Origin: Narcine bancroftii
Lineage: Eukaryota
Reading direction: 5' to 3'
Length of the DNA stretch: 64,000 nt
Assembly: GCF_036971445.1 (NCBI RefSeq)
Contig: NC_091470.1
Location: 191,332,001 to 191,396,000 of the forward strand
Positions 26,981-45,312 of the stretch are shown one piece after another. Both the position numbers and the translations under genes were made by a program. The number at the start of each line of letters is the position of its first letter. Positions within the stretch are counted from its first letter, which is position 1. The notes below the pieces were generated by a model. The model ran no database searches, was not told the origin of the DNA, and saw only the letters and a list, made by a program, of their open reading frames with translations.

Positions 26981-27026
26981 TCTGAGCACATGCCCGATCC
27001 CAACGAGGCTTCAAAAATAAATCCTA

Positions 27027-27070
27027 CCCAGCAACGGTTGACACATGATGCCCGTGCTATTTGATTGGCT
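27027..27070 (+). promoter_or_regulatory. MHC class II-type X1-X2-Y enhanceosome module (RFX/CREB/NF-Y sites), distal and inverted relative to the beta gene
   Basis: CCCAGCAACGGTTG (X1, compare HLA-DRA CCTAGCAACAGATG), overlapping TGACACA (X2-like), exactly 20 bp of spacer, then TTGATTGGCT (Y, compare CTGATTGGCC). It sits in a non-repeat patch between a Rex1 tail and a small tandem repeat. Confidence 0.65.
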
Positions 27071-27149
27071 AGCGTTCCCCATGTTATTCATCCTGCGGTC
27101 AGAGAGGCTGCGGTCTGTTTCTCTGTTATTTGAAGTTGGGGATTTTCCT

Positions 27150-27390
27150 TCCATCCCCTCCCCCAGTGACCCATCTGGAAGGGTCCTTCTGCCTGCCATT
27201 CCTGAGCACCCTCACTTTCCCCTCCATTGTTCCAGTGACCCATCTGAGCAGTTGCCCTCTGTATTCCAAGCTGTCCATCACCTTCCTTGACTCCCCTCCA
27301 TCCTCCCAGTGACCCATCTGAGCAGATGCACTCTGTATTCAAAACTGTCCACCACCTTCCTGGCATTCCCTTCCACCCTCCCAGTGAGAG
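27150..27390. repeat. Short tandem repeat with cccagtgacccatctg core
   Basis: 3-4 diverged ~70-bp units; another copy of the core at ~28050. Confidence 0.65.
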
Positions 27391-38224: not shown

Positions 38225-38423
38225 NNNNNNNNNNNNNNNNNNNNNNNNNNNNNNNNNNNNNNNNNNNNNNNNNNNNNNNNNNNNNNNNNNNNNNNNNNNN
38301 NNNNNNNNNNNNNNNNNNNNNNNNNNNNNNNNNNNNNNNNNNNNNNNNNNNNNNNNNNNNNNNNNNNNNNNNNNNNNNNNNNNNNNNNNNNNNNNNNNNN
38401 NNNNNNNNNNNNNNNNNNNNNNN

Positions 38424-39765
38424 NTCTCTCACCTGCTGAGCTGGAGGTTCCACTTGCTTGAAAAGGGCATCAAAAAATCACAGTGCCCAACAGCAGAGTG
38501 AGCTGCCTCAATGACCATCACCCAGTTACACTCACATTTACTGTGACAAAATGTTTTTTTTGAGATAGGTATGTGGTAATTCTGGCCATGACCAAGGAAA
38601 AGTCTGGACCACTGCAATTCGCCTACCATCACAAATCACTCCATAGTAGATGCAGTATCACTGGCTCTCCCCCCCTTCTTCTGGATCAGCTTGACAACAC
38701 CAACTCATAACATGCAGCTGATCTTCATCAACTACAGCTCACCCTTCAACATCATTATTCCCTCATTGCTGGTCAACAATCTCAACTCCAGGCCTCTGCA
38801 TTCACCTCTGCCACTGGATCCTTAACTTCCTAATCGGAAGACTAGTCAGCATGAATTGGAAACAAATTCTCCTCCTCACTGATTATTAACACAAGTGCAC
38901 CCCAAGGATACGTGCTTAGCCCACTGCTCTACCCATTATACACCCACGACTGTGTGGCCAGGCACAATTCCAATGCTATCTGCAAATTTGCCAACGACAT
39001 GGACATTTGTCAGCAGAATGACAACATACAAGGAGAGAGATCAACTCATCGAAAGGTGTCACAACAACCTCGCGCTCAACGTCAGCAAAACCAACTAGAT
39101 GAATTGTGGTCTTCAGGAGGAAATCAGGAGAACGTGATCTATCCTCATAGAGGGGTCAGCAATGGAGAGGGTCAAGAACTTCAAATTCCTGGAGTTGATA
39201 TCTGAAAATCTGTCCTCGAGCCTCCATGTCGATGCAATCACAAAGAAGGCTCACCAGTATATATTTTTGTGAGGTGTCTGAGGGGATTCGGTATGTCACC
39301 GAAGCCACTTGCAAATTTCTACATTTGGACCGTGGAGAGCATTCTGGCTGGTTGCATCTGGTATGGAGATGCCAACACTCAGGACAGGAAAACCTCCAGA
39401 GGGCTATTAACTCAGCCTGTGACAATCACAAGCACCAGACCTTCACTCCATTGAGGACATCTACACGAGGTGATGTGTAAAGAAATTTAAAAAAGCAGCC
39501 TCTATTCTCAAAGACCCCCCACCACCCAGGCCATGCCCTCTTCACTCTGCTACCATCAGAAATCTAAAGACGAGCACTTAGTGGCACAAGGACAGCTTCT
39601 TCCCTTCTGCCATCAGATTTCTGAATGAACCGCAGACTCACTTTGCTTTTGTTCTTGCAGAATTTTTATTTATTTTTTTAAGGTGGTTCATATGAATGTT
39701 TGCACTGTGAAGCTGCCACAAAACAATGAATTTTGAGACATGTTCATAACAATAAATTCAGATTC
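38424..39765 (+). mobile_element. Rex1/Babar LINE RT and 3' end
   Basis: VSCLND..PV.LT, LSPLLY.LYTHDCVARHNSNAICKFA and ESILAGCI motifs. Confidence 0.85.
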
Positions 39766-40689: not shown

Positions 40690-41360
40690 ATCCGGTGCCC
40701 CTCCTTTTCACTCGCCGCCCCTCTCCCCTATATGGATCCGCCGCCCCCCCCCCTCTCCCGGGGACCGGCCCGTCACGCCGGTAAGACAGGACTCCCGTCC
40801 ATGCGGTGGCTGGTGCCCGGGACCGGCGGGCGGACAGCGCCGGGAGTCGGGGAGAGGTTGCACCCCGCCGACGGCTTGCAGGCCCGATGCTCGAGCGCGC
40901 GGGGGTGAGAAGGGTCCCGGGGATGTTCTCACCTCTCCGCGGCAGCACCTCTCGTTCATAGATGGGAATGTTGTTCCACACACGCCCAACATGTCCTGGT
41001 AAACCGCCTCCGGATCCTCCTTGTTCCAGCGGTCCACGTTGCTCTGCATCCACTCCTTCACCACCACAAACCTCCTTAGGACGGGGTCTAAGTACCAGAT
41101 CACCTCACCGTCGTAGATCGATTTTCTGACGAAGGTCCATTCCCCACGGCGCTGCTGTTGAACTCACAGCCCTGAATAATGAGTCAACGAGTGAGCTCCT
41201 GGGTGGGAGGGAGACAGGACACAGAGTCACCCCCGCCCCACTCTGGGCATCCCCTCTCCAGCATCAGGCCCGCAGGCTGCAGCCCCCGCCCTCATTCCAG
41301 TTCCCACCCCACACCGTCCATCCCCCCGCAAGGCTGGAACCTCGGATATATCCGCAGTCC
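40690..41360. other. CpG island spanning MHC II beta exon 2 and the start of intron 2
   Basis: Dense CpG (e.g. gggaccggcgggcggacagcgccggg, tcgagcgcgcggggg) against a CpG-depleted background. Confidence 0.7.
40933..41198 (-). CDS. mhc2b: MHC class II beta chain, exon 2 (beta-1 peptide-binding domain); frameshifted as assembled (possible pseudogene or consensus error)
   Basis: Acceptor cctgtctccctcccacccAG| and donor G|GTGAGA. Frame-corrected translation: GAHSLTHYSGCEFNSSAxGEWTFVRKSIYDGEVIWYLDPVLRRFVVVKEWMQSNVDRWNKEDPEAVYQDMLGVCxNNIPIYEREVLPRR. It has the beta-1 Cys pair, the NSS glycosylation site and W61/N62/N82 equivalents, and resembles the shark class II beta motifs GAHS...C.FNS...WM.SNVDRWN...C..NIPI recalled from nurse shark. 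Length 266 nt (net -1). Confidence 0.9.
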
Positions 41361-44829: not shown

Positions 44830-45250
44830 AGTGCATCACATATTTTCCAACTCACGGGACCGAGCCGACGATTCGCCCGCAGGACTTGGCCGATCCTTTC
44901 CCACTGAACCCATCACATCGGTCCGGACCTCAGGCTCACCCAGCCCCAGGGATGGAAGTGGAGCCGCTGAGAGCCGGCGGGACACTGGGACAGGGGCACA
45001 GAGGCGACGGGACCCCGGGACTCACCGACTCCGACCTCCCGCTGTCCACGGAGATGCGCGGAGCAGAGGAGCAGGGACACCCGAAACCACGAAGCGCCGA
45101 ACGGAGCTGTCCATTCCCTCATTATCGCTCGCTGGTCACACAGGGAACTGCGACGCTCTCTTCCGACCCGCTTTAAATATAGGGCGCCGAATGCACCAAT
45201 CACAACCGGCAAAAAGGGAACCAATCATGAACGGGCAAGGCGGGCAGGGA
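44830..45250. other. CpG island over the MHC II beta promoter, exon 1 and start of intron 1
   Basis: High GC content and CpG density. Confidence 0.7.
45026..45122 (-). CDS. mhc2b: MHC class II beta chain, exon 1 (signal peptide): MREWTAPFGASWFRVSLLLCSAHLRGQREVGV+G
   Basis: ATG at 45122, 50 bp below a TATATTTAAA box. 97 nt (32 codons + 1) with a hydrophobic FRVSLLLC core, ending at a consensus G|GTGAGT donor (intron starts 45025). Phase 1 joins exon 2 as G|GA GCT CAC = GAH. Lies in a CpG-rich island. Confidence 0.8.
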
Positions 45251-45312
45251 GGAGCCAATCACAAGCGGGAATTGGGGAACCAACCACAAAGTTGAAGGAA
45301 GGAGTTTCTGGG
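45170..45312 (-). promoter_or_regulatory. Proximal promoter of the MHC class II beta gene: TATA box plus three Y/inverted-CCAAT boxes and one degenerate copy
   Basis: On the minus strand: TATATTTAAA (45181-45172), TGATTGG at plus-strand CCAAT 45196-45200, 45221-45225 and 45255-45259, GTGGTTGG near 45280-45287, an opposite-orientation CCAAT at 45271-45275, and partial X-like CCCAGAAAC at 45312-45304. Confidence 0.75.

What the first reader, a model, noticed from the sequence alone, without database searches (positions are those of the whole stretch)
27027..27070. Canonical X1-X2-Y (CIITA enhanceosome) module ~18 kb from the promoter, inverted, in a non-repeat patch
Seen: CCCAGCAACGGTTG, TGACACA, exactly 20 bp of spacer, then TTGATTGGCT, matching the HLA-DRA X-Y geometry. 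Other CCCAGCAAC sites I saw (e.g. 25798, 28522, 35859) have no Y box at that distance, and no plausible first exon follows this one. Knowledge: mammalian MHC II loci have distal, often inverted X-Y enhancers bound by RFX, NF-Y and CIITA. Inference: this is a distal or intronic CIITA enhancer in a shark/ray, or the orphan promoter of a deleted neighbouring MHC gene. The S box is poor (CGAGGCT at the expected position).
Basis: partly seen in the sequence, partly recalled or inferred. Interest (0 to 1): 0.75.

Follow-up and report, generated by a model that had tools for sequence, protein, structure and literature searches.

The report
Ray MHC class II enhancer array
This short DNA module is one of about fifteen gene-less copies of the MHC class II on-switch that flank a ray or shark's class II gene pair, many joined to an NF-kB-type site, and it likely works as a long-range enhancer, possibly supplying the X-box input that the neighbouring beta gene's own promoter lacks.

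Summary
The X1-20 bp-Y module at 27027-27070 is real and sits in the MHC. Two paralogues just left of the window keep the S position, X, Y and kB (41 of 48 columns) but not the X-Y spacer (5 of 18). It is one of 15 distal X-Y modules around the only class II alpha/beta pair found. Nine carry kB; the 10 downstream ones are all inverted and the 5 upstream ones all gene-oriented. Strict patterns hit almost only this region genome-wide, so it is no transposon. No leader exon follows it. The beta gene is spliced in RNA-like contigs, yet its promoter has three CCAAT boxes and no X box; alpha's promoter is canonical. The '18 kb' spans a probable assembly gap, and beta exon 3 is missing from the assembly, so distance and inversion hold only as assembled. 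Best reading: a distal RFX/NF-Y/NF-kB enhancer, a kind known in mammals; activity untested. This scan noted the upstream modules here and similar ones in other sharks and a skate (unchecked notes).

The parts
27003..27011 (+). Conserved 9-mer at the S/W-box position, 15 bp before X
   Evidence: 7 of 9 columns identical in three paralogues. That it is a true S box is inferred from position only.
27027..27042 (+). X1 box plus the first X2 bases (predicted RFX site)
   Evidence: Scores 16.3 bits against a matrix built from three class I-type promoters and the class II alpha promoter of this genome; 11 of 16 columns identical in three paralogues.
27039..27045 (+). X2 position, TGACACA (CRE-like half site)
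   Evidence: Only TGA(C/T) is shared by the three paralogues.
27041..27060 (+). 20-bp X1-Y spacer: sequence diverged, length kept
   Evidence: 5 of the last 18 columns identical in three paralogues; lengths 20, 20 and 19.
27061..27070 (+). Y box (inverted CCAAT, predicted NF-Y site)
   Evidence: 10 of 10 columns identical in three paralogues.
27139..27148 (+). NF-kB-type site GGGATTTTCC, 75 bp after the Y core
   Evidence: 13 of 13 columns around it identical in three paralogues; matches the recalled kB consensus GGGRNWYYCC.
38225..38424 (.). 200-N run, probably an assembly gap holding beta exons 3 onward
   Evidence: Other runs of exactly 200 N occur in L048, L097 and L114. The exon 3 start seen in RNA-like contigs is absent from the assembly. 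Gap status is inferred.
40933..41198 (-). MHC class II beta exon 2 (beta-1 domain), with three one-base indels in this assembly
   Evidence: Atlas neighbours are MHC domains, class I first and class II beta at 0.81; class II beta identity rests on recalled shark sequences and the adjacent alpha gene. Contigs of 4 of 4 runs carry each indel the other way.
45026..45143 (-). Class II beta exon 1 (leader; ATG at 45122)
   Evidence: Covered, with loose ends at the splice site, in RNA-like contigs.
45171..45262 (-). Beta promoter: TATA-like box and three CCAAT (ATTGG) boxes, no X box
   Evidence: Best X scores before the three ATTGG cores are -6.3, -2.3 and -0.4 bits, and at most 2.4 bits allowing one indel.

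Best explanation
The element is a gene-less X1-X2-Y module with an attached NF-kB-type site, one of about fifteen X-Y modules around an elasmobranch class II alpha/beta pair, and it likely acts as a distal enhancer of those genes. RFX is predicted to bind X and NF-Y to bind Y at the fixed 19-21 bp spacing, forming the platform that recruits CIITA, while NF-kB at the site about 75 bp further on would add B-cell or inflammatory input. The module would loop to the class II promoters. Because the beta promoter has CCAAT boxes but no X box, it would depend on these modules or on the alpha promoter for RFX/CIITA input. Shown: anatomy, paralogue conservation, clustering, gene layout as assembled. Inferred: binding, activity, target gene.
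For: (1) Locus: class II alpha C1 exon 7 kb beyond the window; alpha leader and a canonical X-19 bp-Y promoter 22 kb beyond; b2m-like and bromodomain exons about 1.1 Mb away on the same contig; RFXAP family match in the genome. (2) Footprint: paralogues at G000:C5:191324904 and 191330455 keep S position, X, Y and kB at 41 of 48 columns against 5 of 18 in the X-Y spacer (Fisher p=1.6e-5) and 8 of 38 and 10 of 47 in the flanks. (3) Enrichment: a matrix from 4 true promoters finds 17 X-Y pairs at 10 bits or more in 464 kb (15 distal, the alpha promoter, one probable other promoter), against 0-2 in 20 Markov shuffles and 0 at 8 bits or more in 200 kb of control DNA. Of 47 X-like sites near the genes, 16 have ATTGG at 19-21 bp and only 3 ATTGGs fall at any other distance. 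(4) Genome-wide: the strict X-Y pattern has 6 hits in 3.33 Gb, all on C5 at 189.8-191.4 Mb, of which 3 precede class I-type leader exons. The X-half/Y/kB pattern has 7 hits, 6 within 135 kb here. (5) kB follows Y at 58-75 bp in three sequence families with no BLAST homology to each other: 9 of 15 modules, against 0 in 20 shuffles. (6) Mammalian distal S-Y modules bind RFX and CIITA and act as enhancers (passages of PMC7866136; PMC2292219; PMC1802633).
Against: No binding, chromatin or reporter data. Conservation is shown only among paralogues in one genome; no other elasmobranch genome could be searched (the tool holds no relatives; empty). The S-X spacer (10 of 15) and Y-kB stretch (30 of 65 columns, including a 17-base deletion) are also fairly conserved, so the boxes do not stand out everywhere. 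Both genome-wide patterns were drawn after seeing the modules, and 3 of the 4 matrix training promoters came from one of those patterns, so the tests are not fully independent. X2 and S do not match the recalled mammalian consensus well. The class I-type promoters have the same X-Y geometry, so CIITA versus NLRC5 is not settled. The probable gap leaves distance and orientation uncertain.
Confidence: 0.7

Rival explanations
1. The downstream modules are the upstream control region of a second, oppositely oriented class II alpha/beta pair that has been lost or is hidden in the gap at 38225-38424. They would then serve, or have served, that pair.
For: The downstream 3.4-kb block is a 75-87% identical inverted copy of the block upstream of alpha, and module polarity mirrors across the genes. 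Elasmobranchs carry one to four copies of each class II gene (PMC10751288 passage). The gap already seems to hide beta exons.
Against: No remnant of alpha exons 1-3, the alpha promoter or beta exons 1-2 in 464 kb. Only one beta exon 2 in the assembly. The 27027 family has no BLAST-detectable counterpart upstream of alpha.
Confidence: 0.15
2. It is an orphan promoter or a decaying duplicated copy with no present function.
For: Several modules are duplicates, including four 97%-identical tandem units. One tandem copy scores under 8 bits and the upstream family-3 copy has no Y at the right distance.
Against: Y and kB are invariant while the spacer and flanks have decayed. No leader exon follows the module, whereas the same test recovers the alpha leader. 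Local CpG observed/expected is 0.55 against 0.31 for the window.
Confidence: 0.08
3. The module recruits NLRC5 or acts through RFX/NF-Y/NF-kB alone, and serves class I or antigen-processing genes rather than class II.
For: Class I-type promoters share the geometry, the nearest about 280 kb away. In mouse the S box sets NLRC5 versus CIITA choice (PMC4374748 passages), and this S position could not be classified.
Against: The 15 modules bracket the class II pair within 172 kb and are absent from most flanking MHC DNA sampled (2 hits in 199.6 kb). Their S-position sequence differs from that of the three class I-type promoters.
Confidence: 0.07

Closest known systems
Distal S'-Y' / X-Y (XL) enhancers of the human and mouse MHC class II region (HLA-DRA distal module, H2-Ea distal X-Y; Masternak 2003, Krawczyk 2004, Gomez 2005, seen only through passages of PMC2292219, PMC7866136, PMC1904273 and PMC1802633)
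   Same: Promoter-type X-Y geometry away from any first exon, several copies in the class II region, some reversed (the Ii Y''-S'' module in PMC1802633 Table 1).
   Different: Cartilaginous fish. About 15 modules around one gene pair, arising partly by tandem and inverted duplication. A kB site at a near-fixed 58-75 bp in three unrelated families. Strict mirror polarity as assembled. From recall only, the mouse Ea distal region also holds a kB-like motif (Dorn 1988; not held), so the pairing may have a precedent.
Proximal W/S-X1-X2-Y module of classical class II promoters (HLA-DRA type)
   Same: X1, an X2 half site and Y with 20-bp spacing; the alpha promoter here has it.
   Different: No leader exon downstream. 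The review passage says all classical human class II promoters carry the module (PMC7866136), whereas this beta promoter has no X box.
Class I SXY module read by NLRC5 (PMC4374748)
   Same: Same X and Y with 20-22 bp spacing; three class I-type promoters of this genome match the same pattern.
   Different: Different S-position sequence; kB lies after Y, not upstream of S as recalled for mammalian class I enhancer A; located around class II genes.

Membership tests
Distal MHC class II S-X-Y enhancer | X1 box | tested here: met
   0 mismatches to a recalled consensus; 16.3 bits against this genome's own promoters.
Distal MHC class II S-X-Y enhancer | Y box at fixed spacing from X (20-22 bp in PMC4374748) | tested here: met
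   20 bp here, 20 and 19 in paralogues; 19-21 bp in 16 of 16 modules near the genes.
Distal MHC class II S-X-Y enhancer | X2 (CRE-like) box | tested here: inconclusive
   Only TGA(C/T) is conserved in 3 of 3 paralogues.
Distal MHC class II S-X-Y enhancer | S/W box about 16 bp upstream of X | tested here: inconclusive
   A 9-mer 15 bp upstream is conserved at 7 of 9 columns, but no verified S consensus was available to score it.
Distal MHC class II S-X-Y enhancer | Lies in the class II region, away from a gene start | tested here: met
   Beta exons in the window, alpha gene just beyond it; no leader exon downstream.
Distal MHC class II S-X-Y enhancer | Bound by RFX, NF-Y and CIITA in vivo; enhancer activity | not testable with these tools
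   Needs ChIP, ATAC or reporter assays. An RFXAP family match exists in the genome; CIITA and RFX5 were not searched.
Distal MHC class II S-X-Y enhancer | Conserved at the orthologous position in other species | not testable with these tools
   No related genome is held; no look-alike windows.
MHC gene promoter (orphan) | Leader exon within about 400 bp downstream | tested here: not met
   Only a non-hydrophobic candidate at 27027 and none at the two paralogues; the alpha leader is recovered as a positive control.
Transposable element or high-copy repeat | Many dispersed copies | tested here: not met
   Family 1 has 3 copies and family 2 has 6, all in this locus. Counts are lower bounds by the tool's own note.
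NLRC5-type class I SXY module | Class I-type S box | tested here: inconclusive
   The S-position sequence differs by eye from that of three class I-type promoters; specificity in rays is unknown.

The most novel reading that the evidence does not exclude
Elasmobranch class II control is split: the beta gene has no RFX/CIITA landing pad of its own and is driven by a mirror-arranged array of composite X-Y-kB enhancers on both sides of the gene pair. This would wire NF-kB directly into class II expression and put a locus-control-type architecture near the origin of jawed-vertebrate adaptive immunity.
Probability: 0.35. Interest if true: 0.72.

Novelty: new variant of a known kind. Interest (0 to 1): 0.5.

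Why it matters
If these modules are active, long-range RFX/CIITA control of MHC class II predates the shark-mammal split or arose twice. A transcribed classical beta gene without an X box would be an exception to the rule drawn from human class II promoters, and it gives a clean test of whether distal modules can replace the proximal one. The repeated X-Y-kB pairing suggests a direct inflammatory input to class II in cartilaginous fish. The work also shows that this assembly misrepresents the beta gene (three probable indel errors, later exons missing), which could be misread as loss of class II beta.

Tried and rejected
High-copy repeat: rejected. Beta as pseudogene: first suspected from three frame breaks in exon 2, rejected because contigs of 4 of 4 runs carry each indel the other way and show splice-junction ends; a null allele in the assembled animal is not formally excluded. 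The run search listed no holder on record as RNA; the four runs are 'RNA?' guesses from one study. No contig of those runs covered 26997-27374; this blank is not evidence on transcription of the module. Pfam scans of 9 window ORFs and a genome search with PF00969 found nothing, and the homologue search with the beta-1 piece found nothing. tblastn and motif scans for a beta-2 or beta transmembrane exon in 464 kb gave only noise. X-Y-like matches at window coordinates -47515, -29247 and 126537 belong to a dispersed repeat (at least 8 copies) and scored under 8 bits; they were dropped, as were the 52366 hit (8.4 bits) and the tandem copy at -37010 (under 8 bits, though it keeps kB). The C9 hit lacks a convincing X and was treated as chance. 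A metagenome pattern scan returned microbial contigs that I took as chance matches and did not use. Krawczyk 2004 and Dorn 1988 were not held; PMC7041702 was not read. No supplements were consulted.

Full report
Observation. The window is G000:C5:191332001-191396000. With a recalled X consensus, up to 2 mismatches and 15-27 bp spacing, this is the only X-Y pair in the window. The other 4 of 5 CCCAGCAAC sites have no ATTGG within about 105 bases. The module sits between a repeat tail (34 short genome hits to query bases 1-40) and a 74-bp tandem repeat at 27218-27387.

The locus. On the minus strand lie a leader exon (ATG at 45122) and a beta-1-type exon at 41198-40933. The Atlas places the latter among MHC domains, class I clusters first and class II beta at 0.81; I call it class II beta from recalled shark sequences and its neighbour. 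Seven kb beyond the window is a C1 exon whose PDB matches are almost all class II alpha chains, after two b2m-MR1 fusion constructs. Its alpha-1 exon and a leader with a canonical X-19 bp-Y promoter lie upstream, at window coordinate 86011. A b2m-like exon and bromodomain exons lie at 190.25-190.30 Mb, and class I-type leaders at 189.76, 190.82 and 191.08 Mb. This fits the elasmobranch MHC as described in passages of PMC10751288, which contain no hit for 'promoter' or 'enhancer'. An RFXAP-family match exists on C16. An earlier scan note names the organism as an electric ray; I did not check this.

The beta gene and the gap. Only one beta exon 2 was found in the assembly, with three frame breaks. 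Contigs of 4 of 4 RNA-like runs (one study; RNA status is the tool's guess) carry a one-base difference at each of 40975, 41145 and 41178 and have loose ends at the exon borders. So the gene is transcribed and spliced and the breaks are probably assembly errors. The 15-base loose end marking exon 3 has no match in the window at 2 mismatches, in 76 loci at 1 mismatch, or exactly in the genome, and no C1-set exon was found near it. A 200-N run lies at 38225-38424; runs of exactly 200 N recur in 3 other fetched stretches. I infer a gap that hides exons 3 onward. The module is then downstream of beta, more than 18 kb from its promoter, and inverted as assembled.

Anatomy and footprint. Two paralogues lie 7.1 and 1.5 kb left of the window in the same orientation, about 75% identical over 115-183 bases. 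In their alignment, three-way identity is 7 of 9 at the S position, 11 of 16 at X, 10 of 10 at Y and 13 of 13 around GGGATTTTCC. It is 5 of 18 in the X-Y spacer, 8 of 38 and 10 of 47 in the flanks, 10 of 15 between S and X and 30 of 65 between Y and kB. Boxes versus spacer gives Fisher p=1.6e-5. Spacer length stays at 20, 20 and 19. This is what selection on binding sites and spacing would leave.

The array. A matrix from three class I-type promoters and the alpha promoter finds 18 X-Y pairs at 8 bits or more and 17 at 10 bits or more in 464 kb. Twenty Markov shuffles give 0-2 at 10 bits. Twenty 10-kb stretches elsewhere give 0 at 8 bits among 484 ATTGG, and 199.6 kb of MHC flank gives 2. The 17 are the alpha promoter (in the training set), one site at 168910 followed by a splice donor, and 15 distal modules. 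Ten lie downstream of the genes, all on the plus strand (-44504 to 27027); five lie upstream, all on the minus strand (94905 to 127341). Nine of the 15 have a kB match 58-75 bp after the Y core; none did in 20 shuffles. These nine fall into three families without BLAST homology to each other. Seven of the downstream modules lie in four tandem 3.4-kb units that form an inverted 75-87% copy of the block upstream of alpha. Independent origins are therefore about six families, not fifteen.

Genome-wide specificity. A strict X-Y pattern has 6 hits in 3.33 Gb with 0 for the reversed control: the three family-1 copies and three class I-type promoters. My own uniform-base estimate is about 1 chance hit genome-wide. 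An X-half/Y/kB pattern has 7 hits, 6 within 135 kb here. Both patterns were written after seeing the modules, so their value lies in the absence elsewhere and in the independent promoter hits.

The beta promoter. It has a TATA-like box and three ATTGG cores. The best X scores before them are -6.3, -2.3 and -0.4 bits, and at most 2.4 bits if one base were missing or extra, near the control median of 0.4. True promoters and modules score 10-19 bits. The promoter itself was not covered by the RNA-like contigs, so assembly error there is not directly excluded.

Mechanism. By analogy with mammals, RFX would bind X, NF-Y would bind Y, the fixed spacing would let CIITA dock, and the module would loop to the class II promoters, with NF-kB adding input. 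All of this is inferred. A beta promoter without X would rely on such modules or on the alpha promoter. I put 0.70 on a distal class II enhancer, 0.15 on the control region of a lost or gap-hidden inverted gene pair, 0.08 on an inert copy and 0.07 on a class I or NLRC5 role.

Comparison with what is known. I saw passages only (no full texts, no supplements) of PMC2292219 (distal X-Y at Ea and HLA-DRA, about 40 non-promoter X or X-Y sequences in the human class II region), PMC7866136, PMC2278383, PMC1802633, PMC1904273, PMC4374748 and PMC10751288. Distal modules are therefore a known kind. Searches listed no paper on class II cis-elements in cartilaginous fish, but the library lacks most subscription journals. 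It works like a mammalian distal S'-Y' enhancer by anatomy; membership by binding and activity is untested.

Earlier scan notes (unchecked). One note covers the upstream modules of this same locus, which I had already found. Others report X-Y modules with kB sites at shark class II loci and X-less beta promoters in a skate. They agree with my reading but are leads, not support.

Verdict. A real, non-random regulatory module; a new variant of a known kind; interest 0.5.

Noticed in passing
window 40933-41198: Three one-base indels break class II beta exon 2 in the assembly, but RNA-like contigs of 4 of 4 runs show the other form; probably assembly errors.
   Followed up: yes
window 38225-38424: Beta exons 3 onward are missing from the assembly and probably lie in this 200-N run.
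   Followed up: partly
L025:5300 to L026:6800 (window coordinates -44.7 to -33.2 kb): Four tandem 3.4-kb units, about 97% identical over the family-2 module, each with two X-Y modules; a recent enhancer expansion or an assembly artefact.
   Followed up: partly
L040:4910 (window coordinate 168910, plus strand): Strong X-20 bp-Y module (14.4 bits) followed about 40 bases later by a GTGAGT donor; probably the promoter of an unidentified gene with a non-coding first exon.
   Followed up: no
L111:8614 (minus) and L113:5810 (plus): Two strong X-Y pairs with 18-bp spacing (14.8 and 19.5 bits) facing away from each other; possibly promoters of antigen-processing genes, not identified.
   Followed up: no
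L011-L024: A long array of repeated sequence, over 100 kb, lies between the class I-type gene at 191.08 Mb and the downstream module cluster (repeated identical tblastn hits).
   Followed up: no
L034:4539 and 4695 (minus): Two unrelated X-Y modules 156 bp apart, 22.5 kb upstream of the alpha promoter, without kB.
   Followed up: partly
L032:2816 (window coordinate 86816, minus) and window coordinate 90254 (plus): Further X-like sites near the alpha promoter without a Y at 19-21 bp (10.7 and 15.1 bits).
   Followed up: no
L071, L072, L073: Three class I-type promoters share X-Y, a TGACGC motif and a second CCAAT pair further downstream; the leader in L073 looks frame-broken at a G run.
   Followed up: no
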